A DNA stretch of 64,000 bases from an uncultured Planctomycetia bacterium (GTDB lineage: Bacteria > Omnitrophota > Gorgyraeia > VGKH01 > JBHPFN01): assembly GCA_964406665.1 (NCBI GenBank), contig CAYOSQ010000006.1, forward strand, positions 23,577 to 87,576, read 5' to 3'. Both the position numbers and the translations under genes were made by a program. The notes under the pieces are model-generated. The model made no database searches, was not told the origin of the DNA, and saw only the letters and a list, made by a program, of their open reading frames with translations. The stretch's first letter is position 1, and every line of letters begins with the position of its first letter. Shown in pieces: positions 12,636 to 37,262 of the stretch.

Positions 12636-13157
12636 TCATCTCTTAAATTTACCCATTAGTTCAGCTTGCCCTAACACATGTCCCCCTATTGCTTTAAGCA
12701 CTTCATCCTTGGTTTTTCCAGGATCAATGTTAAGCACAATGTCTAGAGCATACAATTTAAAGAAATATCTGTGATAACTTCCCGGTGGTGGACAAGGACC
12801 GCCATAACCAACCCTGCCAAAATCAGTCATGCCCTGTTTAGAGCCATCTGCCAAGACATTTTTTTTCTCAATTCCTTCTGGTAAGCTTCTTAGGCTTGCA
12901 GGCATATCATAGACTACCCAATGAACCCAGATACCCATAGGCGCATCAGGATCATCATTAATAAGCACAAAACTCCTTGTGCCTTCAGGAACCCCTTTCC
13001 AATCTAGCTGTGGAGAAACATTTTCTCCCTGACAAGAATAAGTCTTGGGAATTTCTAAGCCCTGATTAAATACCGGACTAGTTAATTCTAGCGCCATGAC
13101 TGCACCTCCGAAAAATAATAAAAAACCAATAGCCAAAACAATAATTTTTTTAGCCAT
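12636..13157 (-). CDS. YbhB/YbcL-family PEBP (Raf kinase inhibitor-like) protein, secreted
   Basis: 173 aa; signal peptide; PEBP motifs [29 protein letters not shown]. Confidence 0.8.
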
Positions 13158-23775: not shown

Positions 23776-25196
23776 TGGTCTCCTCCGCTGCACTTTTTCT
23801 CAAGCGCGTACTTGCTTACCGATGAATCAAACTTAACAGGATATTTTCCATTAAAACAAGCAACGCAATAATTATTTTTAGGCCGGGATATTGCTTTTAA
23901 CATTCCCTCTAAGCTTAAATATCCCAAGCTATCAACCTCTAAAAACTTCTCAATTTCCTTCAATTTATATTTCCAGGCGATGAGCTCTTTCTGTGTATGA
24001 AAATCTATCCCGTAAAAACAAGGATACTTATGCGGAGGACAGCTAATACGCATATGTACTTCTTTAGCCCCGGCACTGCGAAACTGACTGACTCTTTTTT
24101 TGGATGTTGTTCCTCTTACTATCGAATCATCAACTATAACAACCCTCTTGCCTCTAATAACATCCTTCATCAGATTAAATTTAACTTTTACACCTAAATC
24201 TCGAATATGTTGATGCGGCTGAATAAATGTTCTTCCCACGTAATGATTTCTTACTATTCCCCACTCAAGTGGAATTCCGGATTCATGTGAAAAACCCAGC
24301 GCAGAAGAAGTACCTGAGTCTGGAACAGGAATAACCAAATCAGCATCAGCCGGATGCTCTTTAGCTAATTGTTTTCCTAATGCCTGACGTACCAGATGCA
24401 CATTCTCGCCAAAGATAACAGAATCAGGACGAGAAAAATAAATATGTTCAAAAATACAAAAAGCATTATTCTTCTTTTTCGGTACAAACCGAGAAGATTT
24501 TATTCCGTGTTTATCAATTACAACTATCTCACCAGGCTCAACTTCTCTAACATATTCTGCTTCGATTAAATCAAAAGCGCATGTTTCAGAAGCAACGCAA
24601 TAAGCATTACCTATCTTGCCTAAACTAAGAGGTCTGAAACCCAAAGGATCACGCACGGCGATTAGTTTATCTTGAGTCATCAAAACAAGAGAATATGCAC
24701 CTTGGACAGACTTTAATGCCTTTGATAATTTTTCTACAACGTCTTTTGATTTAACTTTGGCCATTAAATGAATAATAACTTCACTGTCACATGATGTTTG
24801 GAATATCGAACCTTTTTTCTCTAGCTTTTTTCTTAAGTCAAGACTGTTAACAAGATTACCGTTGTGACCAATAGCTAAAGAACCACCATGATAATCTACG
24901 AAAAGTGGCTGTGCATTTTTAACCAGGCTAGAACCGGTAGTGGAATATCTGGTATGACCTACTGCCATTTCGCCTTTAAGCTTCGATAATGATTCCACAT
25001 TAAAAACATCATTGACCAAACCCATATCTTTATGCATATGAAATTCGCTGCCGTCACTAGAAACAATACCGCAAGCCTCTTCACCTCTATGTTGAAGAGC
25101 ATAAAGACCTAAATAGGTCAATGTGCTTGCCTCTCTGTGACCGAAGATTCCAAACAAGCCGCAATATTCTTTTGGTTTATAAATATTTTTTAGCAT
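23772..25196 (-). CDS. purF: amidophosphoribosyltransferase
   Basis: Ntn-amidotransferase CGLFGIFG nucleophile preceded by an 11-residue propeptide if start is the Met of MLKNIYKPKEY; the ORF-track N-terminal extension to 25280 would overlap purQ by about 100 nt. Confidence 0.9.
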   Translation of the reverse strand: MLKNIYKPKEYCGLFGIFGHREASTLTYLGLYALQHRGEEACGIVSSDGSEFHMHKDMGLVNDVFNVESLSKLKGEMAVGHTRYSTTGSSLVKNAQPLFVDYHGGSLAIGHNGNLVNSLDLRKKLEKKGSIFQTSCDSEVIIHLMAKVKSKDVVEKLSKALKSVQGAYSLVLMTQDKLIAVRDPLGFRPLSLGKIGNAYCVASETCAFDLIEAEYVREVEPGEIVVIDKHGIKSSRFVPKKKNNAFCIFEHIYFSRPDSVIFGENVHLVRQALGKQLAKEHPADADLVIPVPDSGTSSALGFSHESGIPLEWGIVRNHYVGRTFIQPHQHIRDLGVKVKFNLMKDVIRGKRVVIVDDSIVRGTTSKKRVSQFRSAGAKEVHMRISCPPHKYPCFYGIDFHTQKELIAWKYKLKEIEKFLEVDSLGYLSLEGMLKAISRPKNNYCVACFNGKYPVKFDSSVSKYALEKKCSGGDQ

Positions 25197-25977
25197 AATT
25201 AACGCCATTCTTGAAAATCTTAGCTCCGTCTCCCAGCTTAGATTTTTTTGATAAACGAGTCCAATGAGGATGATGCTCAAACAAAAAATGTCTTTCCGGA
25301 TGCGGCATCAAACCTAACACCCTTCCGGTTTTATCACAAATACCTGCTATATCTTCAAGTGAACCATTAGGGTTTCCGGGATAATCAGCTTTTCGACCTT
25401 TGGAATCACAATAGCTAAAAACAATCTGGTTGTTTTTCTTTATACTGCTCAACACCTTGCTATCTCTAACCACAAATTTTCCCTCTGCATGTGCAACCGG
25501 TAAATAAATTACCTCAGATAATCCTTGGGCCCAAATACATTTATTAGTTTTAGGTTTTGAATCTTGAGTCTTAAGATACACCCACCTATCTTCAAACTTA
25601 CAAGAATCATTAAGCATCAATGTTGCTTGCTGCTTAAAATTTTCTGAACCGGGTAAAATACCGGCCTTTACCAAAATCTGAAAACCATTACATATTCCGA
25701 TAATAAGTTTACCCTTTTTTATAAAGCTTCTAACTTCATCCCATAGTTTATATTTTAATTCATTAGCCAAAATTCTTCCTGCAGCAATATCATCCCCATA
25801 AGTAAATCCTCCGGGAACTGCAAGGATTTGATACTTATCAAGTGACCTTTCCTTACTTAAAAGCTGATTAACATGAACAAGCTCGCAAGCTGCTCCTGAA
25901 TATTCAAAAGCAGAAGCGGTTTCCTGATCACAGTTTGTTCCTGCAGTCCTTAGAACAATTACTTTTACTTTAGACAT
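25177..25977 (-). CDS. purQ: phosphoribosylformylglycinamidine synthase glutaminase subunit
   Basis: 266 aa; class-I glutamine amidotransferase with catalytic Cys in GICNGFQ and HPE motif. Confidence 0.85.
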   Translation of the reverse strand: MSKVKVIVLRTAGTNCDQETASAFEYSGAACELVHVNQLLSKERSLDKYQILAVPGGFTYGDDIAAGRILANELKYKLWDEVRSFIKKGKLIIGICNGFQILVKAGILPGSENFKQQATLMLNDSCKFEDRWVYLKTQDSKPKTNKCIWAQGLSEVIYLPVAHAEGKFVVRDSKVLSSIKKNNQIVFSYCDSKGRKADYPGNPNGSLEDIAGICDKTGRVLGLMPHPERHFLFEHHPHWTRLSKKSKLGDGAKIFKNGVNYAKKYL

Positions 25978-25983
25978 ATTTAA

Positions 25984-26637
25984 TTACTTTTTATAAAATT
26001 TCTTTATGATAGATACTACTTCTTTTGGGGTATCAACAACCTGGAGTATATCTAGTTCTCTTTTATCTAAACAGCCCTCTTTAACTACACTCTCCTTCAA
26101 ATAACTTAACAGACCCTTCCAATATTTCTTTCCCACCAAAATAACGGGAAACTTAGGAATTTTAAGTGTCAGTATAAGATTGAGGGATTCGAATAATTCA
26201 TCAAGCGTTCCGTAGCCACCGGGAAATATAACAAAAGCCTTGGCGTACCTAACAAACATAACTTTACGAATAAAAAAGTAATGAAAATTTAAAAGCGTAG
26301 TTACATAAGGATTAGCCTTTTGCTCTAGGGAAATATCGATGTTTAACCCAATAGACTTTCCTTTTGCGTGCCTAGCCCCTCTATTAGCTGCTTCCATAAT
26401 ACCGGGACCTCCGCCGGTAATAACTGCAAACTTGTTTTTTGCCAACAGAAATGCTGTTTCCACAGCATCTTTATAATATTTATTTTTAGGATTTGTCCTT
26501 GCAGAACCGAATATGGAAACCGCTGGACCTGCCTCCGACAAAACTTCAATCGCATCAACAAATTCAGCCATGATTCTAAAAATACGCCATGTCTCATCGC
26601 GAGTAAAATCTCTTTTTAATGCTTTTTTCTTTGCCAT
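25984..26637 (-). CDS. LOG-family (TIGR00730) nucleotide 5'-monophosphate nucleosidase
   Basis: LOG motifs GGGPGIMEA and PGGYGTLDE; start moved to the internal Met (MAKKK) preceded by AAGGAG, avoiding overlap with purL. Confidence 0.75.
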   Translation of the reverse strand: MAKKKALKRDFTRDETWRIFRIMAEFVDAIEVLSEAGPAVSIFGSARTNPKNKYYKDAVETAFLLAKNKFAVITGGGPGIMEAANRGARHAKGKSIGLNIDISLEQKANPYVTTLLNFHYFFIRKVMFVRYAKAFVIFPGGYGTLDELFESLNLILTLKIPKFPVILVGKKYWKGLLSYLKESVVKEGCLDKRELDILQVVDTPKEVVSIIKKFYKK

Positions 26638-26650
26638 ATCATTAATCTCC

Positions 26651-29563
26651 TTACCATTTAAGTGGTTTTTGCCAACATTCTTTAAGATCATTAATATTGG
26701 TATTAATACACGGTTTTCCGTCTAAGCCGTAGACTTTGAAATTATCTGTTCCAGATACACATCCGATTAATCCGAAAGGCAACCCTTTTAATAACTGCTC
26801 AAACTGCTGCTTATTTTCTGAAGACACCTCAACAACAAAGCGAGAATTAGACTCTGAAAACAGAATAAGATCGTCGCCTAAAACTCCTTTTTTATGTTTT
26901 GCTCTATAAGGTATTTCCCTTGCAAATAAATCCATTCCAAACCCACCGCTAAATGCCATCTCAGCGGCAGCTGTGGCAATGCCACCTTCTGAACAATCAT
27001 GACACGAAGAAACCAATCCTGAGTTTGTTGCCTTGCTTAATGCATTCATAATCTTTTTGCCTAATGCGGCATTAACTTCAGGGACATTGTTTCCCAGAAA
27101 TCCTTTTGTATGATAATAGCTACTTCCTCCTAATTCATCAAAAGTTTGACCTACAACATATATCAAATTTCCCGGCTTCTTTATATCCATAGTAATTGCT
27201 TTTGTCACATCTTCCATTATACCTATGGCAGATATTAGAAGTGTTCCCGGTATTGCCATAGATTTTCCGTGTTCGCTATATTCATTGTATAAACTATCCT
27301 TACCAGAAATAAACGGTGTACCATAAGCAAGACCTATCTTATAACAGGCCTGCGAAGCTCTAACCATACTACCTAATCTATCCGGCTTATCCGGATTACC
27401 CCAGCAGAAATTATCTAAGAGTGCAACCTGTTTAAGAGTTCCTCCCACTGCGATTATCTGCCTTAGGGCCTCATCAATACATGATGCAGCCATCCAATAA
27501 GGGTCTATATCTCCAAATCTGAAATTTATACCATTTGAAACAATAATTCCTTTTTTCGAATCCCAGCGTGGACGGGTAACACTTGCATCGGAAGGCCCTT
27601 CATTATTAACTCCCACCAATGGCTTTATCACAGAGCTGCCCTGAACTTCATGGTCATACTGCCTAATTACCCATTCCTTGGAACAAACATCCCAGCTGGA
27701 AAGTATTTTTTTCAAAGAAGAAGTTAAGTCTTTTGTCTTTTTAGAAGATGGCTCTTTAAATCTCTTTGGTTTCCAAACAGCCTTTTTCTTTATCTGAAGT
27801 AAACCGTCGTGTAAAAATTTCATGTCCAAATCGCAAACAGGGTTTCCTTCATAGGATAATTTCAGCCGTTTTGAATTAGTAAATTCACCTATAACAGTTG
27901 CTTCAACATTTTCTTTAGCAAAAATATCTAGAATCTTATCTATATTTTTCTTAGGCACTGCTAAAACCATACGCTCCTGTGCCTCAGAAATCCAAATTTC
28001 ATAATAACTCAATCCTTTATACTTCAAAGGAACTTTCTCTAAATCAACTCTACAGCCGGTATCTTCACCCATTTCACCAACTGCACTTGATAGTCCACCG
28101 GCACCACAATCAGTAATTGCGCTAAACAATCTTTTATCTCTTGCTGCAAGAATAGTATCTACCATCTTCTTCTCTTGTATAGGATTGCCGATTTGTACGG
28201 CAGAAGAAGAAACATCTTCAGATTCATGCGTTAATTCACCGGATGAAAATGTTGCACCGTGAATACCGTCTCTACCTGTTTTGCCACCAACTACAAGTAT
28301 CAGATCTCCTGGAGAAACTTTTTTGAAGGCCTTACCCTTGGGCATTATCCCAACGGTCCCGCAATAAACTAAAGGATTTCCTACGTAGCGTCTGTCAAAC
28401 AGTATCGCCCCATTTACCGTAGGTATGCCCATCTTGTTTCCATAATCCCTAACTCCGGAAACAACACCCTTCATAACTCTTTTAGGATGCAATGTCCCTT
28501 GAGGAAGTTTGCTAAAAGGATAATCCGGCTGGGCAAAACAGAAAACATCAGTATTTAAAATTGGTTTTGCAGAAAGCCCTGTACCTAAAGGATCTCTTAT
28601 AACCCCGCCTATTCCTGTATTAGCCCCGCCGAAAGGCTCCAAGGCTGATGGATGGTTGTGTGTCTCAACTTTAAAACACACATCATAATCTTTATCAAAA
28701 CTAATTATCCCGGCATTATCCTTAAATACCGATATACACCACGGTTTATTTAATTTATTGGTCACCTTCATAACGGTTGATTTAAGCAAATCGTTGATTA
28801 TTTTTTTCTTTCCGTTATAGGTATATTCTATACTGCCTTTAAAAGTTTTATGGGCGCAGTGCTCACTCCAAGTCTGGGCAATGGTTTCTAATTCACAATC
28901 TGTAGGATTTCTGCCTAAGCCTTTAAAATAATCCCTGATATGCTGCATCTCTTTTAAATTAAGAAACAGCTGTCCTTTATTACTAATTTCCATTAACCGT
29001 TTATCATCAGCATTTAACATATCTGCGTGCAAGAGATGAAACGCATAACCATGCGAGCCACTCTCAGATAGTGCTTTAAAAGAGTCTTTAGGATTTTTTA
29101 CTATGTGTTGGATAACTTTGTTGCAGAGAATTTTTTCACAAATAGAGTTTAATTCTTTTTTGCTTAATTTTCCTTTAATCAGATAACGCTTAGCAGTCCT
29201 AACAGCTTCTACAGTATGAATCCCTAAATCTCTGATACCCTTTAGGGTTGATTCTTCTACAGGATCCATTACTCCAGGGTTGTAAGCAACTTCTGCGATT
29301 TGGTATTTTTTCTTTTCTGATTGGTTTTCTTTAAATGTTGAGGAATTGCTGATGTGAAAATTCTGCGTTATATTATCTACAAGAAGTTCGCTGGCAATTT
29401 TTGTCACCTGCTTAAGAGAAATTTTACCACTTATGAAGTACAGCTGTACAAAAGAAATATGACTTACACGATCAATTCCTAAGTCTTCTATATCTTTTTT
29501 GACAGCTTCGCCAACGGCATCAAAGACACCGTGTCTATCTTTGATTTCTATTCGCCAGACCAT
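26651..29563 (-). CDS. purL: phosphoribosylformylglycinamidine synthase, PurS-PurL fusion
   Basis: 970 aa; PurS-like N-terminal about 80 aa followed by PurL AIR-synthase-related domains. Confidence 0.9.
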   Translation of the reverse strand: MVWRIEIKDRHGVFDAVGEAVKKDIEDLGIDRVSHISFVQLYFISGKISLKQVTKIASELLVDNITQNFHISNSSTFKENQSEKKKYQIAEVAYNPGVMDPVEESTLKGIRDLGIHTVEAVRTAKRYLIKGKLSKKELNSICEKILCNKVIQHIVKNPKDSFKALSESGSHGYAFHLLHADMLNADDKRLMEISNKGQLFLNLKEMQHIRDYFKGLGRNPTDCELETIAQTWSEHCAHKTFKGSIEYTYNGKKKIINDLLKSTVMKVTNKLNKPWCISVFKDNAGIISFDKDYDVCFKVETHNHPSALEPFGGANTGIGGVIRDPLGTGLSAKPILNTDVFCFAQPDYPFSKLPQGTLHPKRVMKGVVSGVRDYGNKMGIPTVNGAILFDRRYVGNPLVYCGTVGIMPKGKAFKKVSPGDLILVVGGKTGRDGIHGATFSSGELTHESEDVSSSAVQIGNPIQEKKMVDTILAARDKRLFSAITDCGAGGLSSAVGEMGEDTGCRVDLEKVPLKYKGLSYYEIWISEAQERMVLAVPKKNIDKILDIFAKENVEATVIGEFTNSKRLKLSYEGNPVCDLDMKFLHDGLLQIKKKAVWKPKRFKEPSSKKTKDLTSSLKKILSSWDVCSKEWVIRQYDHEVQGSSVIKPLVGVNNEGPSDASVTRPRWDSKKGIIVSNGINFRFGDIDPYWMAASCIDEALRQIIAVGGTLKQVALLDNFCWGNPDKPDRLGSMVRASQACYKIGLAYGTPFISGKDSLYNEYSEHGKSMAIPGTLLISAIGIMEDVTKAITMDIKKPGNLIYVVGQTFDELGGSSYYHTKGFLGNNVPEVNAALGKKIMNALSKATNSGLVSSCHDCSEGGIATAAAEMAFSGGFGMDLFAREIPYRAKHKKGVLGDDLILFSESNSRFVVEVSSENKQQFEQLLKGLPFGLIGCVSGTDNFKVYGLDGKPCINTNINDLKECWQKPLKW

Positions 29564-29581
29564 GTTTAATTATCTCTTATT

Positions 29582-30451
29582 TTATTGACCGCCTGAAAGA
29601 GCTCCGCGTAGGCTACCTTGAGTTCTAAATAAAGGCATGTTTGCTTCGGTAGCTACATAAACAACGTTAGGATTCTTATTGAGCGTGTTAATCCAAAGAT
29701 AATGTAGATATTGCGATGAGAGGCTCTCGTTGATAATTTTCTGAGCATCTCTTATACCTGCAGCCTCAACGCGTTTTCTTTCTGCTTCTAGCGTTTCACG
29801 AGAAACCACAAACTTCATCTTTTCAGAATCCTGCTCAGCTTTTAATTTCTGTTCAATAGCCGCACTTACCATAGGAGGTAATTTAATACTTCTAAGCAAC
29901 ACCTTCTCAATAACAACTCCCCTATCTTGGACTAAAGATTCCAGATCAGCTTGAAATTTTGCCGCTAGCATTTCTCTTTCTGAAGTATAAAGAGCTTTTG
30001 CCTCATAACCAACTGTTACACCACGGGCAACGGAGCGAAACTGAGGGACAAGAACAACTTTCTGATATCTCAGCCCAACATTTTTATACATCATAACTGC
30101 TTCTTTAGGACCTAAGCGATAAAGAACTGAAACATCTAAGGCAACATTCAACCCCTCCTTAGAAGGAACAGTCATTGTCTCTGTAGCTTCTTGAGTTCTC
30201 ACAGATAGATTAATTACTTTAGCTAGAGGATTAACCAGGTTAATTCCACTGTTCAAATGTTTATCGCTAACCGTACCGAAGAAATCAACTACACCAACAT
30301 GTCCGGCGGGAACTACTCTTACTGCACCAACAAGCACACCTATTATCAAACCGATTGTCGCTGCAATTATGATAGGCTTTATAGAACCTGTCTTTGAAAC
30401 CTGTGAAAAAATGATACCTGCAACAAAACCAAAAATTAAAATGGGCAGCAT
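29582..30451 (-). CDS. SPFH/band-7 (prohibitin-like) membrane protein
   Basis: 289 aa; N-terminal TM helices then SPFH domain and coiled-coil (VVPAGHVGVVDFFG). Confidence 0.75.
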   Translation of the reverse strand: MLPILIFGFVAGIIFSQVSKTGSIKPIIIAATIGLIIGVLVGAVRVVPAGHVGVVDFFGTVSDKHLNSGINLVNPLAKVINLSVRTQEATETMTVPSKEGLNVALDVSVLYRLGPKEAVMMYKNVGLRYQKVVLVPQFRSVARGVTVGYEAKALYTSEREMLAAKFQADLESLVQDRGVVIEKVLLRSIKLPPMVSAAIEQKLKAEQDSEKMKFVVSRETLEAERKRVEAAGIRDAQKIINESLSSQYLHYLWINTLNKNPNVVYVATEANMPLFRTQGSLRGALSGGQ

Positions 30452-30648
30452 GTCCCCTCCTTTTTTTAATATCTTCTATTCTGATTATTTTTAAAAAACC
30501 TGGAAATAAATGAATTAAATGACCCTATTAACGTAAGCTTAAGAAATGGTCCCAGCCTTATGTTTCTTTTTTTAATTACATAAAGCAGACCGGCTATAAA
30601 GCCCACAACAACAAACCACGGAATAATAAAAGGGTGCATTTAAAGAGT

Positions 30649-31353
30649 TTATTTTGTTACTCTAGTCAAAACTTCCTGGTAAGCTTTTTCGATATCTCCT
30701 AGATCCCTACGAAATCTATCTTTATCCATCTTCTTGCCAGTACCTTGCTCCCAAAGTCTGCAAGTATCCGGAGAGATTTCGTCGGCAAGTATAATATCAC
30801 CTTTGAATCTTCCAAACTCCAGCTTAAAATCTACTAAATCCAGATTTCTCTTAAGGAAAAAATCCTTTAAAATATCATTAATCTTAAATGACATAGCATC
30901 TATTTTTGCAAGCTCATCCTCAGTAGCTAGCTTCAAAGCTGCTATATGATATTCGTTAAATAGTGGATCATGTAAATCATCTCTTTTAAAATGATATTCT
31001 AATACTGGCTTTTCCAAACGGATTCCTTCTTCTAAACCTAAAAGCTTAGCCATCCCTCCGGCAACAATATTTCTTATAGTAAGCTCAATTGGAACAATCT
31101 CGACGTTCTTAATAATCATTTCTCTGTCACTTATTGTTTTTACTAAATGGGTTACAATCCCTTTAGACTCCAGCTCTTTAAACAACACTGAAGAGATTTT
31201 GTTATTAACAACACCCTTTTCTGAGATAGTTCCTCTTTTAGTAGCATCGAAAGCTGTGGCATCATCTTTAAAATACTGAATAAGAATATCCGGATCATCA
31301 GTCTTATATAGTATTTTTGCTTTTCCTTCGTAAATCTTCTCGCCTTTTTCCAT
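30649..31353 (-). CDS. purC: phosphoribosylaminoimidazole-succinocarboxamide synthase
   Basis: 234 aa; SAICAR synthetase N-terminus (IYEGKAKILY). Confidence 0.9.
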   Translation of the reverse strand: MEKGEKIYEGKAKILYKTDDPDILIQYFKDDATAFDATKRGTISEKGVVNNKISSVLFKELESKGIVTHLVKTISDREMIIKNVEIVPIELTIRNIVAGGMAKLLGLEEGIRLEKPVLEYHFKRDDLHDPLFNEYHIAALKLATEDELAKIDAMSFKINDILKDFFLKRNLDLVDFKLEFGRFKGDIILADEISPDTCRLWEQGTGKKMDKDRFRRDLGDIEKAYQEVLTRVTK

Positions 31354-31355
31354 AA

Positions 31356-32648
31356 TTATAATCCTACCTTTTTAAATATTTTATCCATATGTTTTATATA
31401 ATATTTAACGTTAAAGAAAGAATCTATTTCATCCTGACTTAGATGTCTTCTTACCTTTCTATCTCTTGAGAGAATATCCTTAAACTCAGATCCTGTCTGC
31501 CAAGCCTGCAGGGCGCAGCGTTGAATTACATCATAAGCAGCAGTTCTGGCCAAGCCTTTATCCATAAGCTCAACGAGAATTCTTTGAGAATAAATTGCAC
31601 CTTTACTTTTAGCAAGGTTAGCAATCATATTCTTAGGATGAACTGATAAACCTTCCATAACATTAATAAATTTATTAAGCATATAATCAAGTGCTGTAGC
31701 ACTATCCGGTATCGCGACTCTCTCTGCTGAAGAATGACTGATATCTCTTTCATGCCATAAAGCAATATTTTCTAAACCAATCAACGCATTAGCACGAAGT
31801 ACCCGAGATAATCCGCATATACGTTCGCAAGTAATGGGGTTCTTTTTATGCGGCATCGCAGAAGATCCGATTTGACCTTTATAAAAAGATTCTTCGGCCT
31901 CAGCTACTTCTGTTCTCTGAAGATGTCTAATCTCCAGGGCAAATTTCTCAAGCGAAGAACCAACTATTGCTAAAGTATTAAGAAACTGCGCATGTAGATC
32001 TCTTTGAATAATTTGAGTTCCGATTGCCGCAGCATTAATGCCAAGTTTGCCACATACAAATTCTTCTACCTTAGGATCAATGTGCACATAAGTTCCCACT
32101 GCTCCGGAAACCTTACCAACTGAAATTGCCTCTCTTGCCAGTTCTAGCCTAGCAAGATTTCTCTTAGTCTCATCATACCAAACAGCTAATTTGAAACCGA
32201 AACTTATAGGTTCGGCATGAACACCATGAGTTCTAGCAACACATAATGTTTCTTTATATTTTTTTGATTTTGTAGCTAAAACGGTGATTAATTTTTTGGT
32301 GTCTTCAATTAATATATCAGATGCTTCTTTACACTGAAGTGCTAAAGTTGTATCCAGAAGGTCTGATGAGGTTAATCCCACGTGAAGATAGCGGGCCTCA
32401 GGTCCTAGATTTTCTGCAACATTAGTTAAAAATGCAACTATGTCGTGCTTAGTTTTCTCTTCCAGCTTTTGTACTGACTCTAAATCGAATTTGGCTTTCT
32501 TTTTTATTTTTTCTAATGCTTTTTTTGGAATTTTGTTAAGCTTAGTTAAAGCTTCACATACCAAAACTTCAATCTTGAGCATTTTGGAAAACTTACTTTC
32601 ATCTTCCCAAATACGCCCCATTTTTGTTAATGTGTATCTTTCTATCAT
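31356..32648 (-). CDS. purB: adenylosuccinate lyase
   Basis: Fumarate-lyase family; start set at the internal Met (MIERYTL) preceded by GGGGTGA RBS and downstream of the predicted promoter; the ORF-track start 32690 lies inside the promoter region. Confidence 0.9.
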   Translation of the reverse strand: MIERYTLTKMGRIWEDESKFSKMLKIEVLVCEALTKLNKIPKKALEKIKKKAKFDLESVQKLEEKTKHDIVAFLTNVAENLGPEARYLHVGLTSSDLLDTTLALQCKEASDILIEDTKKLITVLATKSKKYKETLCVARTHGVHAEPISFGFKLAVWYDETKRNLARLELAREAISVGKVSGAVGTYVHIDPKVEEFVCGKLGINAAAIGTQIIQRDLHAQFLNTLAIVGSSLEKFALEIRHLQRTEVAEAEESFYKGQIGSSAMPHKKNPITCERICGLSRVLRANALIGLENIALWHERDISHSSAERVAIPDSATALDYMLNKFINVMEGLSVHPKNMIANLAKSKGAIYSQRILVELMDKGLARTAAYDVIQRCALQAWQTGSEFKDILSRDRKVRRHLSQDEIDSFFNVKYYIKHMDKIFKKVGL

Positions 32649-32680
32649 GCTATCACCCCTTCTGTTAAATGAGAAAGAGT

Positions 32681-32710
32681 AGTATACCAAATATTAAAAC
32701 GATTAGTCAA
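32681..32710 (-). promoter_or_regulatory. sigma-70-like promoter upstream of purB (TTGACT-N18-TATACT, read on minus strand)
   Basis: Minus-strand -35 TTGACT (32705-32710) and -10 TATACT (32681-32686), about 30 nt upstream of the purB ATG. Confidence 0.4.
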
Positions 32711-32824: not shown

Positions 32825-34021
32825 CTAACGATGTTGCTGAAATTTCTCTAAAACTTTCTGTAAATCGCGCACATCAATCAATCCCATATTAATAATTACC
32901 TCACCAAGCCTCTGACCCGAAAGCCAGTGTCTGTTTAAAGCTTCCTCTAAATTCTTCTCATTAATTATTTTTTCATCCAATAATAGTTGTCCAATTGGCT
33001 TAAAAGCTGCTATTTCATGAGAAAGAATTTTTTTCTGAGCTTTTTTATCAACAATTAATCCCCCTGTTCTCTGTGGCTTACCTAAATTGATGCTTCTTCT
33101 ATTTACCAGATAATTACTTCCAGGCAAACCTTTAAGATGTTTCTTTATTTCAAAAATGGTTTCAGACAATTGAATAGCATTCTGAATCCAGTGCGCTTTA
33201 TTATTAACTATAGCAACAGATATACTCATCAAAGGCATCTTTTTAATTTTATGAGCTCTATCTCTAGCCATAACGAAACCTTTATCTCTGTCCTCGATAA
33301 CATAATGAAAAGGCATAAGCCTATCAAACTGCTTAATTACGTCCATTGCTATGGCCTCTTCCTTAACCGGAGTAGTAACTACAATAAAATCATCCCCTCC
33401 GATGTGACCGACGAAATCACCGCTGTTGCCTATGCTGCGAATTGCATTATTGATTATATGAGCAGTCTGTAAAATAACAGAATCACCCTTCATATAACTA
33501 TATTTATCATTGAACGATTTAAAATTATTAACATCAAAATACAAAAATGAGAATATCAAACGGTCTTGGATCTTTGCGTTAGTAACTTTTTCAATCTCGC
33601 GAGATCCGGGCAATTTAGTAAGAGAATTTGTCTGAACGTGATGCTCGGTCCTGCGCAGAGCCATTTCCATTCTTACCTCAAGATCTATAGGGTCCGGCGG
33701 CTTCAACAGATAATCATCAATGCCGTGCTCTATCTCAAAAAGCTTTTTCCTGATTTGCCTTTTTTCTATTAACAGAATAATCGGAATCGATGAAGTGACA
33801 AAATCTTTCTTAAGGAATTTACTTATTTTAAGTCCGCCGCTGGGGGGTAAATCATAGTCTAGAATAATCAAATCAGGCCTAAACTGCAAGACGATATCAA
33901 TCATAGATGAGCCATCTTTTATAAACTTTATTTCATAACCGTAGGAGGTCAAAAGCTTATACAAGAGCTCAGACACTAAGCCCGAATGTTCCGCAAGAAG
34001 TATCTTTTTCTTCTTATTCAT
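32825..34021 (-). CDS. response regulator with receiver domain, GGDEF-like domain (GGDDF variant) and C-terminal MshEN-type c-di-GMP-binding domain
   Basis: REC domain (ILLAEHSG...PDLIILDYDLPPSGG), GGDEF-fold segment with HIGGDDF, C-terminal RLGEVIINMGLIDVRDLQKVLEKFQ matching the MshEN pattern. Start at MNKKKK. Confidence 0.7.
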   Translation of the reverse strand: MNKKKKILLAEHSGLVSELLYKLLTSYGYEIKFIKDGSSMIDIVLQFRPDLIILDYDLPPSGGLKISKFLKKDFVTSSIPIILLIEKRQIRKKLFEIEHGIDDYLLKPPDPIDLEVRMEMALRRTEHHVQTNSLTKLPGSREIEKVTNAKIQDRLIFSFLYFDVNNFKSFNDKYSYMKGDSVILQTAHIINNAIRSIGNSGDFVGHIGGDDFIVVTTPVKEEAIAMDVIKQFDRLMPFHYVIEDRDKGFVMARDRAHKIKKMPLMSISVAIVNNKAHWIQNAIQLSETIFEIKKHLKGLPGSNYLVNRRSINLGKPQRTGGLIVDKKAQKKILSHEIAAFKPIGQLLLDEKIINEKNLEEALNRHWLSGQRLGEVIINMGLIDVRDLQKVLEKFQQHR

Positions 34022-34060
34022 AACTTCTTTTATTTTAAAACATAACAGTAAATAAAGCAA

Positions 34061-34095
34061 TTAAAAAACCACCAGAGAAATGGTGGTTTTATTTT
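34061..34095. terminator. bidirectional rho-independent terminator-like hairpin
   Basis: 8-bp stem aaccacca/tggtggtt (34067-34088) flanked by T-runs on both strands; lies downstream of the 34118-34492 gene. Confidence 0.45.
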
Positions 34096-34117: not shown

Positions 34118-34492
34118 TTATTTTGTAGTAAATCTATTATAGCATCTCTCTTCGAGCTTTTGCCTACGCTCACCAATCTTTTGACCGGGCCCTGGTCCTA
34201 AAACACAATCGGGCCCCTTCCCCACTTTTTTGCAAGCCTCATCCCAAGATAAAGAATATGTTTCTTCAACATCTTTGAGACATCTATCTAATTCTTTATT
34301 ATTCAGACGTAATTTTTTGATATCGTATAAGCGTTTTTGTTCATTAATAAGAAAATTTTCATCATCCGAAGTTGTAGAAAATTTTGATAGAGTAATAGAT
34401 GCACCGGCAATAATTGCTACTGCCGCAATAATTAAAATAATCTTTAACGCTGCACTGGATTTTGTATTAGACATGTTCTCCTTTCTTGACAA
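34118..34492 (-). CDS. small membrane-anchored Cys-containing protein (hypothetical)
   Basis: 124 aa; N-terminal hydrophobic anchor, four Cys in the C-terminal half. Confidence 0.4.
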   Translation of the reverse strand: MSRKENMSNTKSSAALKIILIIAAVAIIAGASITLSKFSTTSDDENFLINEQKRLYDIKKLRLNNKELDRCLKDVEETYSLSWDEACKKVGKGPDCVLGPGPGQKIGERRQKLEERCYNRFTTK

Positions 34493-35084
34493 ACAATAAA
34501 GGAAATACTATGTCGCTGATACAACAAGGTATCCAAACAGCTATGAACAGAAAGAAAAATACAGCTACATAGGAGAAACAGCTCACACACTCACCTTTTG
34601 CCATCATCATATGAAACAGCGATGCCCAGGTACTTACAAAAACGTGTCCAGCGTGAGGGAATTTTGTCATTGGTCTAAAATAAGCTATGGCAATGCCTAC
34701 TAAAGCTAATGGAATTACTATCCATGCTTCTTCCAGAAAACCTATATGTGCTTCTCTATGTGGCATATTTAACATTGTCTCACCTATATAAGGAATAATA
34801 GAATCACTCAATGTAGCTATGCCAATCGAACCCACAAAACCAATTGCTAACAATGCAAAAATATTACATTTGATTTTTTTTCCTGCACATTTATGCAAAC
34901 TAAATAAAGAGGCTGTTACTAATGCGCTTAATAAAACGTGGGTAGGATGCAAAATATAGAAAATCTTATAAGACACATCTGAAGACAATCCTCGGAACAA
35001 TAACATGATTACTATTCCTGATATTGCCCCGAGGATAGTAAAAGGCATGTGGTGCCGCAATTCCTTTAAAATGAGCGATATCAT
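34467..35084 (-). CDS. polytopic membrane protein with duplicated His-containing motifs (hypothetical)
   Basis: 205 aa; about six TM helices; internal duplication HPTHVLLSALVTASLF / HAGHVFVSTWASLFH. Confidence 0.45.
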   Translation of the reverse strand: MISLILKELRHHMPFTILGAISGIVIMLLFRGLSSDVSYKIFYILHPTHVLLSALVTASLFSLHKCAGKKIKCNIFALLAIGFVGSIGIATLSDSIIPYIGETMLNMPHREAHIGFLEEAWIVIPLALVGIAIAYFRPMTKFPHAGHVFVSTWASLFHMMMAKGECVSCFSYVAVFFFLFIAVWIPCCISDIVFPLLFVKKGEHV

Positions 35085-35102
35085 TATTTATAAAAACGCT
35101 CC

Positions 35103-37262
35103 TTAAACTCCATGTGCTTTGCGAGCAACTTTTTTAATCATTAAAATTATAAAAATAATAACTGCGCAGAAACTCAAAAATTTCAGCCATCCACGCAATC
35201 TTTCAGATAATCCAAAATAATTAACACTTAACCAAGGGCTTTCTTTTTCGGTTACCAATAATTTTGAAAATCTCAAAAATCTTCCCTGCTGAGGTATGTC
35301 TATTTTAATCGGCAGCACACCCTTTCTCTGAGTTAATCTTCCCTTCTTTGAAGAGTATTGGTCGTAAACAGCTTTTTCTTCTCGGGCGTACTGATCCATT
35401 CTTCCAGCTACGCTCTGAACGCCGCTACGCAATAATCCCAAACCTGCGCCGTGAGACTTACTTGTAACTTGCCTTACATCTCCGCCGAAATTGAAATACG
35501 CATGATCTAGCGGCAGATAAACAGACCAGTAAAATTCACTTATCGGTATATCAACTTTGGGTAGATTTAATTTTAACTGCCCCACAAAATTCATCTTTTT
35601 GAATTTGTCTAAATAAACAACTTCTACAGGAAATCTTGTCAAGCTTTCTCCCTGAAGTTGAGATTTCTGAAGAGGAATAAGAATATTTCCATCTTTGTCT
35701 TTTGCTGGCTTAACCGGCTTACCAGCAACAAATGTACTCCAAAGAATAGAGTCCTTAGGTAGTTCAATACGGATAAACTGTTTAACATTGTTTCTCACCT
35801 GGTATGTTGCCTTAGTTAAACTCTTTCCCTCACCAGTATACAAAGTAACATAATTTACAGAATCAACAGCAGCAACTAAAACCGGTATTTCCTCATGGCG
35901 GGTAACTTCTATAGTAATATCAACAGGATGTTTTAGATATTTAAAGGCTAGCAGAATGGGATTCTCCGAACTGCTCCACATAGAACTTGGTAGCTCCTTA
36001 ACATCTATCTCACTAGCACCTTCAATTTCTGTTGCTTCAAGCTCAACATTAGTAGTTGCAGCAATGCCGTAATAGCCCTTTTCTCTTTCTACATCTAGAG
36101 CAATAACTTCAGGCACCTGTGCCACCACAGAACCTTCACCAATATTTCTTTCAAAAACTAAATTCAACAGATAATTACCCTTGATGCCAAAATTAAGAAA
36201 AACATCCAAATACTGGATGCCATCTTTCTGGGAGATTTTCCAATCCCTTAATTCTCTTCCACTAACATCTAAAACACTAACATCCTCTGGCAATGCAACA
36301 CGGATATTAGATATTTCAGACTGCAAAATTGAATAATTCAACGTTGTCTGACAATGCATAATACCTTCACCAACAGATACGTTTGTTGAAGTATCAGCGT
36401 GAATTTTTGGCTCAAGCTTAACCGGCGTTATAATTTCTTTGGGCAATGCCTTTGTCCATCGAACTGTAATTCTTGGCGTATTTGGCATAACTGCCCATGC
36501 CACAGTCTGTTTTGGCTCTTCTTTAACTTCTACTTTTATTGCTGGCTCAATAAATATCTGAACATTCTGCTCTGGCATAGTAAACTCAAACTGCGAAATC
36601 GGCGCAGGTAATACTTCAACGTTAAAATTACCCGGTCCTCCTTCTCTTTCACGTGAAGCCTTAATTAAGAACTCTACATCTAAATTATACCTTCCGGGCC
36701 TGTCTATCATAAGATAATACTTACCACCCTGCATAATTATAAAGGAAGATTTTCTATTAACACTTACATCAATCAACCCAACGCTACTGCTAACTAAAGG
36801 AATCTGTGTCCAACCATTAAGCTGAAAAACTTCAAAAACAACTTTTCCGCTTACTGTTACGACATTTTCTTCCAGCTCGGCTTTGTAATTTGTTTGATAA
36901 ATAGCGTATGGAGAAAGAATTGTAGACTCCTGCGGAACTTCTAAATCAGCTTCTAAGAGACGTTGGCTGCTTACCTGAACAGCACCACCTCTTGGACGAA
37001 TAATCTGATCTGATCCCCCTTGATCATATTGTATTGTCTGAGAAGTTTGCGGAGCGTAATACTCTTGTTGGAAATTTATATTACTCTGGGTATTTAACCT
37101 TTGTTGCAGTTTATCTTTAAAACCTCCTGCCAAAATCATTTCAGGTGAAACCAAAACAAAGGATGCGATTACAAAAAATAAAACTACCCTACGTAAAAGA
37201 ATAGCTTTCATCTGCTTCCTCCCTTTTTGTATATATTTATATAACGCCTCACTTGTGCGCAT
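35103..37262 (-). CDS. large envelope protein with N-terminal signal/anchor and C-terminal TM anchor (hypothetical)
   Basis: 719 aa; hydrophobic N-terminal segment and C-terminal TM helix; no recognised catalytic motif. Confidence 0.5.
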   Translation of the reverse strand: MRTSEALYKYIQKGRKQMKAILLRRVVLFFVIASFVLVSPEMILAGGFKDKLQQRLNTQSNINFQQEYYAPQTSQTIQYDQGGSDQIIRPRGGAVQVSSQRLLEADLEVPQESTILSPYAIYQTNYKAELEENVVTVSGKVVFEVFQLNGWTQIPLVSSSVGLIDVSVNRKSSFIIMQGGKYYLMIDRPGRYNLDVEFLIKASREREGGPGNFNVEVLPAPISQFEFTMPEQNVQIFIEPAIKVEVKEEPKQTVAWAVMPNTPRITVRWTKALPKEIITPVKLEPKIHADTSTNVSVGEGIMHCQTTLNYSILQSEISNIRVALPEDVSVLDVSGRELRDWKISQKDGIQYLDVFLNFGIKGNYLLNLVFERNIGEGSVVAQVPEVIALDVEREKGYYGIAATTNVELEATEIEGASEIDVKELPSSMWSSSENPILLAFKYLKHPVDITIEVTRHEEIPVLVAAVDSVNYVTLYTGEGKSLTKATYQVRNNVKQFIRIELPKDSILWSTFVAGKPVKPAKDKDGNILIPLQKSQLQGESLTRFPVEVVYLDKFKKMNFVGQLKLNLPKVDIPISEFYWSVYLPLDHAYFNFGGDVRQVTSKSHGAGLGLLRSGVQSVAGRMDQYAREEKAVYDQYSSKKGRLTQRKGVLPIKIDIPQQGRFLRFSKLLVTEKESPWLSVNYFGLSERLRGWLKFLSFCAVIIFIILMIKKVARKAHGV

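What the first reader, a model, noticed from the sequence alone, without database searches (positions are those of the whole stretch)
32825..34021. Response regulator combining a degenerate-looking GGDEF (GGDDF) domain with a MshEN-type c-di-GMP receptor domain
The protein has a receiver domain, a GGDEF-fold domain whose signature reads GGDDF, and a C-terminal segment matching the MshEN c-di-GMP-binding pattern (RLGxxIIxxGLIxxxxLxxxLxxQ). It may synthesise and/or sense c-di-GMP in one polypeptide. The window also encodes a standalone PilZ protein (1476-1883) and an HD-GYP phosphodiesterase (11699-12610).
Basis: partly seen in the sequence, partly recalled or inferred. Interest (0 to 1): 0.45.

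Follow-up and report, generated by a model that had tools for sequence, protein, structure and literature searches.

The report
Pseudo-receiver GGDDF cyclase-like protein with MshEN tail
This Omnitrophota gene encodes a signalling protein from a large, unstudied branch of the c-di-GMP synthase family (active-site motif GGDDF instead of GGDEF) in which the usual phosphorylation switch has decayed and a small c-di-GMP-receptor module has been added, so the messenger itself probably controls the enzyme-like domain.

Summary
Window 32825-34021 (-) encodes a 398-aa protein with four parts:
- a receiver domain (residues 5-120);
- a complete GGDEF-fold domain (140-309) whose motif reads GHIGGDDF;
- a disordered linker (310-340);
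- a 53-residue MshEN_N module (342-394), which scores above the curated cut-off of NCBIfam NF053729.

The PilZ and HD-GYP genes in the window are also real.

1. GGDDF is not decay. GH[IVL][GA]GDDF is close to a fixed signature of a widespread REC-GGDEF clade: 767 clusters at E<=1e-30, across many phyla. The clade keeps the Mg/GTP-binding residues and lacks an RxxD I-site.
2. Unfused members are about 310 aa, have canonical receivers and often sit behind a histidine kinase.
3. The MshEN-fused forms were seen only in contigs labelled Omnitrophota or left unclassified, and they have lost the receiver's phosphorylation residues (canonical in 2/12 fused against 112/138 unfused representatives).

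My reading is that the input has been swapped from phosphorylation to c-di-GMP, and that c-di-GMP probably acts as product feedback on a GTP-using cyclase domain. Neither catalysis nor c-di-GMP binding is shown. The MshEN motif carries R9P, Q32H and Q61F substitutions. This is a new variant of a known kind, of moderate interest.

The parts
32825..34021 (-). Complete CDS, 398 aa plus stop: REC(degenerate) - GGDEF-fold(GGDDF) - linker - MshEN_N
   Evidence: ORF list. Identical 398-aa gene calls on 4 contigs. More than 1000 homologues. AF2 model mean pLDDT 83.
33662..34009 (-). Receiver-fold domain (residues 5-120). D55 is retained. The acidic pair reads E11-H12, the Thr position is I85, and K107 is present.
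   Evidence: Pfam Response_reg, 55.4 bits. Residues mapped against unfused relatives with DD/D/T/K. In 67 fused homologues, position 12 is D in 1/67, position 85 is T in 1/67, and position 107 is K in 33/67.
33605..33661 (-). Connecting helix (residues 121-139) ending in the family motif LTKLPG. It continues a helix predicted from residue 111.
   Evidence: AF2 helix 111-135 with low pLDDT at 127-135. ALRRT and L-T-x-L-P-G are invariant in fused homologues. T135, L137, P138 and G139 are conserved in at least 143/150 representatives.
33095..33604 (-). GGDEF-fold domain (residues 140-309). Conserved residues: D163, K168, N171, D180, H206, G208-G-D-D-F212, K297 and the C-terminal GS..NRR.
   Evidence: Pfam GGDEF, 49.8 bits. 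Foldseek top hits are WspR, DgcR and PleD, and isolated GGDEF chains align over about 185 columns. Residues mapped to PleD and to 3IGN. Conservation counts.
33386..33409 (-). Signature GHIGGDDF (residues 205-212), the A-site equivalent of R-x-GG(D/E)EF
   Evidence: Read directly from the sequence. About 146/150 unbiased representatives match GH[IVL][GA]GDDF.
33233..33304 (-). Family-specific insertion (residues 240-263): a short helix plus a beta-hairpin carrying conserved Y240, D244, R245, D254 and R255
   Evidence: AF2 elements H242-247, E249-253 and E259-263. The Pfam GGDEF profile stops matching before this point. Y240 148/150 and R255 147/150.
33002..33094 (-). Variable, predicted-disordered linker (residues 310-340)
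   Evidence: pLDDT below 50 for residues 312-337. No conservation and variable length in alignments A1 and A2.
32840..33001 (-). MshEN_N-type module (residues 341-394): motif I 342-365 (nt 32927-32998), spacer 366-370, motif II 371-394 (nt 32840-32911)
   Evidence: NF053729, 48.5 bits against a cut-off of 38. phmmer hits to MshE 5HTL and PilF. Profile of family C-termini against PilF E = 8e-37 and MshE E = 1e-13. AF2 predicts four helices: 343-349, 355-368, 372-378 and 384-397.
34065..34090 (.). G+C-rich hairpin with T-run between the upstream gene (stop at 34118) and the ATG at 34021. It isolates the gene transcriptionally from upstream.
   Evidence: Terminator scan. Sequence read on the minus strand: AAAACCACCATTTCTCTGGTGGTTTTTT.
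32681..32710 (-). Promoter-like site (TTGACT-18-TATACT with TG) in the 134-bp gap before purB. purB therefore probably has its own promoter.
   Evidence: Consensus scan, 10/12 matches. This is a consensus match only.

Best explanation
The protein belongs to a widespread, uncharacterised clade of REC-GGDEF signalling proteins whose A-site is fixed as GH[IV][GA]GDDF and which has no RxxD I-site.

Shown: in the ordinary members (about 310 aa) the receiver carries the canonical phosphorylation residues, and a histidine kinase is often encoded immediately upstream, as expected for kinase control.

Shown: in the lineage of this window, seen here only in Omnitrophota-labelled or unclassified contigs, the receiver has lost the residues needed for phosphorylation. 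A MshEN_N four-helix module, or a full MshEN domain in the roughly 482-aa forms, has been appended through a flexible linker.

Inferred:
- The GGDDF domain still binds GTP-Mg and works as a dimeric nucleotide cyclase, most probably making c-di-GMP.
- The decayed receiver and the connecting helix serve as a constitutive dimerisation scaffold.
- c-di-GMP occupancy of the tethered MshEN_N module, rather than phosphorylation, sets the activity. The most likely form is product feedback, standing in for the missing I-site.
For: Fold and homology.
- Pfam and NCBIfam domain calls.
- AF2 pLDDT 83, with REC-GGDEF cyclases WspR, DgcR and PleD as the best structural matches.

The active site is selected, not decayed. 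In 150 representatives found by whole-protein phmmer, with no motif used in the search:
- D210 and D211 150/150;
- H206 148/150;
- the PleD-equivalent substrate and metal residues D163 (D327) 150, K168 (K332) 149, N171 (N335) 149, D180 (D344) 144 and K297 (the 'AK' Lys) 148.

Precedent for activity. A GGDDF enzyme, GSU1937, has been shown to be active in vivo (PMC8835794).

The module behaves as a signalling output. It occurs alone, after extra receivers, at the C-terminus of roughly 1100-aa proteins (read by me as hybrid kinases; their N-terminal domains were not scanned), and fused to EAL domains in 9 of 10 long forms tested.

Operon context of unfused members. A histidine kinase lies upstream, and FIST-HK-RR operons occur in 7 loci.

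Input swap. The canonical receiver quintet is present in 112/138 unfused against 2/12 fused representatives (Fisher p = 1e-5). Some fused clades have even lost the acceptor Asp.

MshEN_N.
- The module scores above the curated cut-off.
- Both Gly (G344, G373) and L358 and L362 are invariant in 67/67. The other four hydrophobic-cluster positions (343, 372, 387, 391) stay Leu, Ile or Val in 67/67.
- Imperfect motifs can still bind: Bd2402, and PilF GSPII-B with K at position 1 (PMC5013675; PMC11731258).

No I-site. NSGD replaces RxxD.
Against: No biochemical data exist for any member of this clade.

Against catalysis:
- The fourth motif residue is Asp, whereas canonical cyclases need Glu there. 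GGDDF-EAL proteins such as PA3258 show no cyclase activity.
- R366 of PleD is replaced by His.
- The 'GRN' Arg aligns to Gly/Ser (a weak alignment).
- Frequent fusion to EAL domains also fits a non-catalytic, GTP-sensing GGDEF domain.

Against c-di-GMP binding:
- Motif I has P for R9 and H for Q32 (66/67 each). In this protein F replaces Q61.
- Neither half passes the relaxed motif of Wang et al. (motif I passes in 0/67).
- The non-binding PilF GSPII-A domain also has His at the Q32 position (PMC12002112).

The direction of regulation (inhibition or activation) is pure inference.
Confidence: 0.4

Rival explanations
1. Non-catalytic sensor or adaptor. The GGDDF domain only binds GTP or another nucleotide, like the GEDEF domain of Caulobacter PdeA (CC3396). 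The protein would be a c-di-GMP (and GTP) receptor that acts through protein-protein contacts, for example with pilus or secretion machinery or another enzyme.
For: - E371->D, R366->H and loss of the GRN Arg.
- GGDDF-EAL proteins without cyclase activity are reported.
- 9 of 10 long relatives carry an EAL domain that keeps most catalytic motifs, which is the classic setting for a regulatory GGDEF domain.
- The long fused forms carry the MshEN C-subdomain. From general knowledge of GspE-GspL, that subdomain is a protein-docking domain in GspE-type ATPases.
- A T2SSE ATPase gene lies about 5 kb from one long form.
Against: - Most family members (about 310 aa, or the C-terminal module of the ~1100-aa forms) have no other output domain. 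A purely regulatory domain would leave them with no output.
- Absolute invariance of both Asp residues and of His206 over proteins only about 30% identical points to chemistry rather than mere binding.
- One GGDDF enzyme is active.
Confidence: 0.3
2. The C-terminal four-helix module no longer binds c-di-GMP, as in XpsE or PilF GSPII-A. It would serve as a dimerisation or docking element, and the protein would be a constitutive or otherwise regulated cyclase.
For: - R9->P, Q32->H (66/67) and Q61->F in this protein. G18 is not conserved. Motif I never passes the published relaxed motif.
- His at the Q32 position is one of the deviations in the non-binder GSPII-A, where binding needed H33Q, S39R and R62Q.
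- By domain score, the best PDB match of the profile of family C-termini is PilF GSPII-A (57.8 bits).
Against: - The contacts that dominate binding in MshE are intact and invariant or conservatively kept: backbone amides after the two Gly, and the two Leu triads.
- Position 1 tolerates K or L in PilF GSPII-B.
- Bd2402 binds tightly with an imperfect motif.
- H365-W366 is itself invariant, which suggests a conserved ligand-facing function.
- The curated NF053729 model scores above its cut-off.
Confidence: 0.2
3. A relay between second messengers. The GH[IV][GA]GDDF clade would make a product other than c-di-GMP, such as pppGpG, a mixed dinucleotide or an oligonucleotide. In this lineage that synthesis would be gated by c-di-GMP through MshEN_N.
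For: - The clade is sharply set apart from canonical cyclases: fixed D-D and His, a conserved 24-residue insertion with Y240, D244, R245 and R255, and the C-terminal GS..DRR.
- From general knowledge, the GGDD motif recalls Cas10 cyclase domains.
- The only studied GGDDF enzyme is a cGAMP-making Hypr enzyme.
Against: - The guanine-specifying N171 and D180 are conserved as in c-di-GMP synthases, and there is no Hypr-type Ser.
- Fusions are to EAL, the c-di-GMP-specific hydrolase domain.
- No direct evidence for any alternative product.
Confidence: 0.1

Closest known systems
REC-GGDEF diguanylate cyclases (PleD, WspR, Leptospira DgcR)
   Same: - Same order of receiver, helical linker and GGDEF-fold domain.
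- They are the best sequence and structure matches.
- The Mg- and GTP-binding residues are conserved: D327, K332, N335, D344, G368-G369, the acidic third motif position and K442 (PleD numbering).
   Different: - The A-site is GGDDF, with His in place of the Arg two residues before it.
- No RxxD I-site.
- A 24-residue insertion after helix 3.
- The Pfam profile matches only the first two thirds of the domain, at 50 bits.
- In this protein the receiver lacks D13- and T87-type residues, and there is an extra C-terminal MshEN_N.
MshEN / MshEN_N c-di-GMP receptor domain (V. cholerae MshE, PilF GSPII-B and -C, Bdellovibrio Bd2402, NfrB)
   Same: - Two 24-residue motifs with a 5-residue spacer and a predicted four-helix bundle.
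- The Gly pair is conserved, and the hydrophobic triads are kept as Leu, Ile or Val.
- The short form is 'MshEN_N only', like Bd2402 and EpsG. The long forms have the full domain.
   Different: - The position is C-terminal, behind a GGDEF-fold domain. This architecture is absent from the portion I read (the later rows) of the 2016 table of MshEN architectures, and 'GGDEF' appears in that supplementary file only 5 times, the two passages shown being census-table headers.
- The family signature is P-[LI]-G-Q...H-W instead of R-L-G...Q.
- Q61 is F in this protein.
GSU1937 of Geobacter sulfurreducens (Hypr GGDDF enzyme)
   Same: It has a GGDDF motif and no EAL or HD-GYP partner domain, with many homologues. 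It is the only GGDDF enzyme shown to be active (PMC8835794).
   Different: GSU1937 has a transmembrane N-terminus and the Hypr Ser in place of the guanine-specifying Asp, and it makes cGAMP. The present family keeps Asp (D180) and is receiver-linked. Relatedness between the two beyond the GGDEF superfamily was not tested.
Pseudo-receiver scaffolds (second receiver domain of PleD; FrzS-type receivers)
   Same: Receiver fold retained while phosphorylation-pocket residues are lost. The plausible role is in dimerisation rather than phosphotransfer.
   Different: Here the acceptor Asp (D55) is mostly kept, and the loss coincides with the gain of a nucleotide-receptor domain.

Membership tests
GGDEF diguanylate cyclase (PF00990) | GGDEF (palm-like) fold | tested here: met
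   Pfam, 49.8 bits against a cut-off of 23.8. AF2 model plus Foldseek: WspR, DgcR and PleD on top, and isolated GGDEF domains align over about 185 columns.
GGDEF diguanylate cyclase (PF00990) | A-site motif [G/A/S]G[D/E]E[F/Y] | tested here: not met
   The motif reads GGDDF. The fourth position is Asp in 150/150 family representatives.
GGDEF diguanylate cyclase (PF00990) | Metal- and GTP-binding residues (PleD D327, K332, N335, D344, E370, K442, R446) | tested here: inconclusive
   D163, K168, N171, D180, D210 and K297 are present and nearly invariant. The R446 equivalent aligns to G301/S302, and R366 is H206. The alignment of the C-terminal third is weak.
GGDEF diguanylate cyclase (PF00990) | RxxD inhibitory site five residues before the motif (common but not universal) | tested here: not met
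   N199-S-G-D202. The family has N/G/T/S at the Arg position.
GGDEF diguanylate cyclase (PF00990) | Synthesis of c-di-GMP from GTP | not testable with these tools
   Needs an enzyme assay.
MshEN / MshEN_N c-di-GMP receptor | Two 24-residue motifs joined by a 5-residue spacer (53 residues) | tested here: met
   Residues 342-365, 366-370 and 371-394. NF053729 profile 1-52 of 53, 48.5 bits against a cut-off of 38. Colinear, gap-free alignment to MshE residues 8-55.
MshEN / MshEN_N c-di-GMP receptor | The six key residues of each motif (R, L, G, L, L, Q) | tested here: inconclusive
   8 of 12 are identical and 1 is conservative. R9->P342, Q32->H365 and Q61->F394. The published relaxed motif is failed by both halves here; across the family, motif I passes in 0/67 and motif II in 39/67.
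MshEN / MshEN_N c-di-GMP receptor | Four-helix bundle | tested here: met
   AF2 helices 343-349, 355-368, 372-378 and 384-397, pLDDT about 76-89. This is a prediction only.
MshEN / MshEN_N c-di-GMP receptor | C-terminal alpha/beta subdomain (T2SSE_N1; the part matched by Pfam PF05157 in the long forms) | tested here: not met
   The protein ends at residue 398, with no PF05157 hit at E<=1. The roughly 482-aa homologues do have it (P0028 residues 393-474). This protein is therefore 'MshEN_N only'.
MshEN / MshEN_N c-di-GMP receptor | High-affinity c-di-GMP binding | not testable with these tools
   Needs ITC or DRaCALA.
Two-component response regulator receiver | Receiver (CheY-like) fold | tested here: met
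   Pfam, 55.4 bits. Foldseek matches to PhoB, DivK and MtrA receivers at rmsd about 1.7-2.5 A.
Two-component response regulator receiver | Phosphorylation quintet (acidic pair, acceptor Asp, Thr/Ser, Lys) | tested here: not met
   E11-H12 / D55 / I85 / K107. In fused homologues the second acidic position is D in 1/67, the Thr position is T in 1/67 and Lys is present in 33/67. Unfused relatives are canonical in 112/138.
Two-component response regulator receiver | Cognate histidine kinase nearby | tested here: not met
   No kinase within 6 kb on either side. Many unfused relatives have a HisKA/HATPase kinase immediately upstream. Absence nearby does not exclude a distant kinase.

The most novel reading that the evidence does not exclude
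The GH[IV][GA]GDDF clade is a distinct class of GGDEF-fold nucleotide cyclase. It would have its own catalytic arrangement (Asp-Asp plus His, and a conserved Y/D/R-rich insertion) and possibly a product other than c-di-GMP. In Omnitrophota it would have been rewired so that c-di-GMP, read by an appended MshEN_N module, replaces phosphorylation as the input. That would be a messenger-to-messenger relay, or an I-site-independent feedback device.
Probability: 0.12. Interest if true: 0.8.

Novelty: new variant of a known kind. Interest (0 to 1): 0.5.

Why it matters
c-di-GMP censuses classify GGDEF domains as active or degenerate by the GG(D/E)EF motif. Under that rule this clade would be scored as inactive. 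It comprises 767 clusters at 50% identity with E<=1e-30, spread across Omnitrophota, Bacillota, Planctomycetota, Chloroflexota, Actinomycetota, Acidobacteriota and other phyla.

Its conservation pattern says the site is under strong selection. If it is catalytic, the rules for predicting cyclases need widening. If it is not, this is a large unrecognised family of nucleotide-sensing outputs of two-component systems.

The fused form found here gives a natural experiment. The same output module is driven by phosphorylation in one lineage and apparently by c-di-GMP in another. That makes both the regulation of GGDEF dimers and the tolerance of the MshEN motif (P...HW variant) directly testable.

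Tried and rejected
- **Chance or pseudogene.** Rejected. There are more than 1000 homologues, an identical gene on several contigs, and a confident fold prediction.
- **Longer TTG start at 34060.** Rejected. It overlaps the upstream terminator hairpin, and homologues start at MxxKKK.
- **Literature on the signature.** GGDDF is mentioned in only six papers, none on this family. AGDDF, GGDDY and GHIGGDDF gave nothing. Omnitrophota plus c-di-GMP gave nothing relevant.
- **Conserved operon partners of the fused gene.** None found across the fused forms. purB adjacency holds only for the closer clade: this window, P0003 and P0108. It is absent from GTDB loci L007, L008 and L011.
- **Degenerate EAL receptor idea.** I first thought the EAL domains fused to relatives were degenerate receptors. 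That came from over-strict regular expressions. On reading the sequences, most catalytic motifs are present, so the idea was dropped.
- **Anti-phage defence role.** No meaningful PADLOC hit.
- **c-di-GMP riboswitch in the window.** None. Rfam finds only a tRNA.
- **Model coordinates.** They were not available to scripts, so I could not measure whether W366 or the DRR tail faces the ligand sites.
Full report
**1. The gene**

Window 32825-34021 on the minus strand is an open reading frame of 398 codons starting MNKKKKILLAEH. The mechanical ORF extends to a TTG at 34060. That stretch overlaps a G+C-rich hairpin followed by a T-run (34065-34090), which sits just after the stop of the upstream gene. 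Homologues begin at the same Met-x-x-K-K-K, and four independent metagenome contigs carry a gene call for exactly this 398-aa product. A 134-bp gap with a good promoter-like site (TTGACT-18-TATACT) separates the gene from purB downstream. The window is 33-41% G+C. All named homologues at 49% identity or more come from Candidatus Omnitrophota.

**2. Checking the observation**

- Pfam finds a receiver domain (residues 7-116, 55 bits) and a GGDEF domain (residues 133-232, 50 bits). The GGDEF match covers only profile positions 5-106 of 161.
- NCBIfam adds NF053729, the 53-position 'cyclic di-GMP-binding domain, MshE-related'. It matches residues 342-393 at 48.5 bits, above the curated cut-off of 38 (E = 5.6e-13).
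- The C-terminal 67 residues alone hit the crystal-structure sequence of V. cholerae MshE (5HTL, E = 3.4e-6) and T. thermophilus PilF (E = 3.8e-12).
- The motif is G205-H-I-G-G-D-D-F212.
Window 1476-1883 is a PilZ protein with intact RxxxR and NxSxxG motifs. Window 11699-12610 is a HAMP-HD-GYP protein with HHERPDGNGYP.

**3. Anatomy**

An AlphaFold2 model built on 67 homologues has mean pLDDT 83. It shows:
- a receiver (strands and helices up to about residue 110);
- a long helix (111-135) leading into a GGDEF-fold domain (140-307);
- within that domain, an extra short helix and beta-hairpin (242-263);
- a disordered stretch (312-337);
- four helices (343-349, 355-368, 372-378, 384-397).

Foldseek against the PDB puts the REC-GGDEF cyclases WspR, DgcR and PleD on top. 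Isolated GGDEF domains align over about 185 columns (for example DosC, TM 0.76 on the target). The fold is therefore complete even though the Pfam profile loses the last third.

**4. GGDDF is a family signature, not decay**

I scanned one genome per GTDB species with two peptide patterns taken from the alignment. This returned at least 596 confirmed loci in many phyla. Because one of those patterns was the motif itself, I repeated the test without it.

A full phmmer search of 1.84 billion cluster representatives with the whole protein gave 767 proteins at E<=1e-30. The best 149 of these plus one earlier hit give the following counts in 150 representatives:
- signature GH[IVL][GA]GDDF in about 146/150;
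- D210 and D211 150/150;
- H206 148/150.

Mapping onto PleD and onto the Marinobacter cyclase 3IGN shows that the substrate and metal residues of cyclases are kept almost without exception:

| This protein | PleD equivalent | Count in 150 |
|---|---|---|
| D163 | D327 | 150 |
| K168 | K332 | 149 |
| N171 | N335 | 149 |
| D180 | D344 | 144 |
| K297 | the 'AK' Lys, K442 | 148 |

Systematic differences from canonical cyclases:
- Asp for the fourth-position Glu.
- His for the Arg two residues before the motif.
- LTxLPG(N/S) instead of LTGLxNRR.
- No RxxD (here NSGD).
- A conserved insertion with Y240, D244, R245, D254 and R255.
- A C-terminal GS-x-Y-x-x-DRR in place of GRN.

The literature holds one relevant precedent. 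[quoted passage not shown] No paper mentions this clade's signature.

**5. What the ordinary members look like**

Most relatives are about 310 aa, consisting of receiver plus GGDDF domain and nothing else. Their receivers are canonical: the quintet (D/E)D-D-(T/S)-K is present in 112/138 unfused representatives. In many loci a roughly 490-aa HisKA/HATPase kinase lies immediately upstream. In seven loci a FIST-domain protein precedes the kinase.

The same module also occurs in other settings:
- after additional receivers;
- at the C-terminus of roughly 1100-aa proteins, which I take to be hybrid kinases, although I did not scan their N-terminal regions;
- fused to C-terminal EAL domains in 9 of the 10 long forms tested, the tenth carrying a ROK domain. 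The two EAL domains I read through (P0162, P0145) keep most catalytic motifs.

The module is thus a common output of two-component signalling and is tied to c-di-GMP metabolism.

**6. What is special about the Omnitrophota lineage**

Matches that extend to query residue about 392 all come from contigs labelled Omnitrophota (or Candidatus Gygaella), or labelled only 'uncultured bacterium'. They come in two forms:
- a short form of about 400 aa, like this one, ending after the 53-residue module;
- a long form of about 482 aa that also has the MshEN C-subdomain recognised by Pfam PF05157.

In these fused proteins the receiver has decayed (counts from 67 homologues):

| Receiver position | Residue in fused homologues |
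|---|---|
| First acidic position | Glu |
| Second acidic position (the Mg-binding Asp) | Asp in 1/67 (His in 39) |
| Conserved Thr | Thr in 1/67 (Ile in 62) |
| Conserved Lys | Lys in 33/67 (Asn in all 26 long forms) |

A more distant fused subclade has lost the acceptor Asp itself (L012, L013, L017). Among the unbiased representatives, the canonical quintet is present in 2/12 fused against 112/138 unfused (Fisher p = 1e-5). Meanwhile the segment P108-P-D-P-I-D-L and the following ALRRT helix become invariant. No kinase gene lies within 6 kb of this gene.

I read this as a change of input. The receiver is kept as a structural or dimerisation scaffold, and a nucleotide-receptor module has been added.

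**7. Will the MshEN_N module bind c-di-GMP?**

The gap-free alignment to MshE gives these equivalences:

| MshE residue | This protein |
|---|---|
| R9 | P342 |
| L10 | I343 |
| G11 | G344 |
| G18 | K351 |
| L25 | L358 |
| L29 | L362 |
| Q32 | H365 |
| R38 | R371 |
| L39 | L372 |
| G40 | G373 |
| G47 | G380 |
| L54 | L387 |
| L58 | L391 |
| Q61 | F394 |

In MshE the ligand is held mainly by backbone amides after the two Gly residues and by two triangular Leu clusters. The Arg residues stack on the bases, and the two Gln residues bond to ribose and phosphate (PMC5013675).

In 67 fused homologues:
- both Gly, L358 and L362 are invariant;
- the other hydrophobic positions are Leu, Ile or Val;
- P342, H365 and W366 are each 66/67;
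- the Q61 position is Gln in 41/67 (all 26 long forms) and is Phe here.

Neither half of this protein passes the relaxed motif published by Wang et al..

Experiments on PilF cut both ways:
- GSPII-B binds at about 6 nM with Lys at position 1, and crystals were obtained with Leu there.
- The non-binding GSPII-A has His at the Q32 position and needed H33Q, S39R and R62Q, plus truncations, to bind (PMC12002112).
- Bd2402 of Bdellovibrio, a receiver-MshEN_N protein, binds tightly with an imperfect motif.

I put binding at roughly 60%. The invariant H-W pair suggests a conserved, possibly compensating, contact.

**8. Mechanism proposed**

Shown:
- the domain order, fold and conserved nucleotide-site residues;
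- the absence of an I-site;
- the decay of the receiver's phosphorylation residues;
- the tethered MshEN_N homologue;
- other c-di-GMP components in the window.

Inferred:
- the GGDDF domain binds GTP-Mg and, as a dimer held by the receiver and helix, makes c-di-GMP;
- c-di-GMP bound to the tethered four-helix module alters the productive pairing of the two GGDDF domains.

I favour negative feedback. The clade has no I-site, and a constitutively dimeric cyclase would need an off-switch. Activation cannot be excluded.

Rivals:
- a non-catalytic GTP and c-di-GMP sensing adaptor (about 0.3);
- a cyclase whose MshEN_N no longer binds ligand (about 0.2);
- a cyclase with a different product, gated by c-di-GMP (about 0.1).

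**9. Comparison with what is known**

The protein works like, and is homologous to, REC-GGDEF cyclases. It fails the defining A-site motif, so it should not simply be filed as a diguanylate cyclase.

It is homologous to MshEN_N and meets the architectural definition, but not the residue-level motif.

It has a receiver fold but fails the phosphorylation quintet, so 'response regulator' is a name of descent rather than of mechanism.

I did not find the architecture REC-GGDEF-MshEN in the part of the 2016 supplementary table of MshEN architectures that I read (the later rows, in part 9). 'GGDEF' occurs only 5 times in that file, and the two passages shown are census-table headers. The rows I read do contain REC-MshEN_N-UNK and (MshEN_N)2-REC-adenylate cyclase. 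The architecture is visible only as precomputed Pfam strings in databases.

**10. Verdict**

The finding is real and richer than first described. It is a new variant of a known kind, not a new kind of system. Interest is moderate at 0.5. The main value lies in two things: the large, overlooked GGDDF clade, and the apparent swap of phosphorylation for c-di-GMP as input. Both are directly testable with standard assays.

Noticed in passing
window 21503-32690 (- strand): The gene sits at the head of a co-directional de novo purine biosynthesis cluster: purB 31356-32690, purC 30649-31353, a Band_7 gene 29582-30451, purL-type FGAM synthase 26651-29563, purF-like amidotransferase 23772-25280, purM 22774-23793 and purD 21503-22777. 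Orthologues at 54% and 50% identity (P0003, P0108) are also directly upstream of purB. A GTP-using or GTP-sensing protein next to purine synthesis genes may be more than synteny, but more distant fused homologues (L007, L008, L011) lack this adjacency.
   Followed up: partly
window 1476-1883 (-) and 11699-12610 (-): A stand-alone PilZ protein with intact RKLLR and NVSSTG motifs, and a membrane-anchored HAMP-HD-GYP phosphodiesterase with LLHDIGK and HHERPDGNGYP. The organism therefore has a c-di-GMP receptor and a hydrolase. No canonical GG(D/E)EF motif occurs in any ORF longer than 100 aa in this 64-kb window.
   Followed up: yes
residues 240-263 of the protein (window 33233-33304): A clade-specific insertion in the GGDEF fold carries nearly invariant Y240, D244, R245, D254 and R255 (consensus Y..EDR.RGY....DR.G). 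Its role is unknown. It could be a dimer interface or an alternative nucleotide site replacing the missing I-site.
   Followed up: no
loci L014, L021, L025, L028, L043, L051, L069 (unfused relatives): A conserved three-gene operon: FIST-domain protein, then a roughly 490-aa HisKA/HATPase kinase, then the 310-aa REC-GGDDF protein. It occurs in Omnitrophota and Planctomycetia genomes.
   Followed up: partly
proteins P0145, P0147, P0195, P0197, P0251 (relatives, about 740-770 aa): REC-GGDDF-EAL proteins have about 200 residues with no Pfam hit between the GGDDF domain and the EAL domain. This may be a second, highly degenerate GGDEF-like domain.
   Followed up: no
loci L085 and L088 (long fused forms P0058, P0028): The roughly 482-aa forms with a full MshEN domain share a different conserved neighbourhood: a divergent GT2 glycosyltransferase upstream, DUF3187 downstream, and a REC-HisKA-HATPase gene about 2.5 kb upstream. 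One locus has a T2SSE ATPase gene about 5 kb downstream.
   Followed up: no
window 34118-37262 (-): Three genes upstream of the finding (124 aa, 205 aa membrane protein, 719 aa) have no Pfam match. They are co-located with the gene only in near-identical contigs.
   Followed up: partly
window 13150-14097 (-): A Macro-NUDIX fusion protein (ADP-ribose-related domains) lies in the same strand run, two genes downstream of the HD-GYP gene (a 173-aa ORF at 12636-13157 lies between).
   Followed up: no
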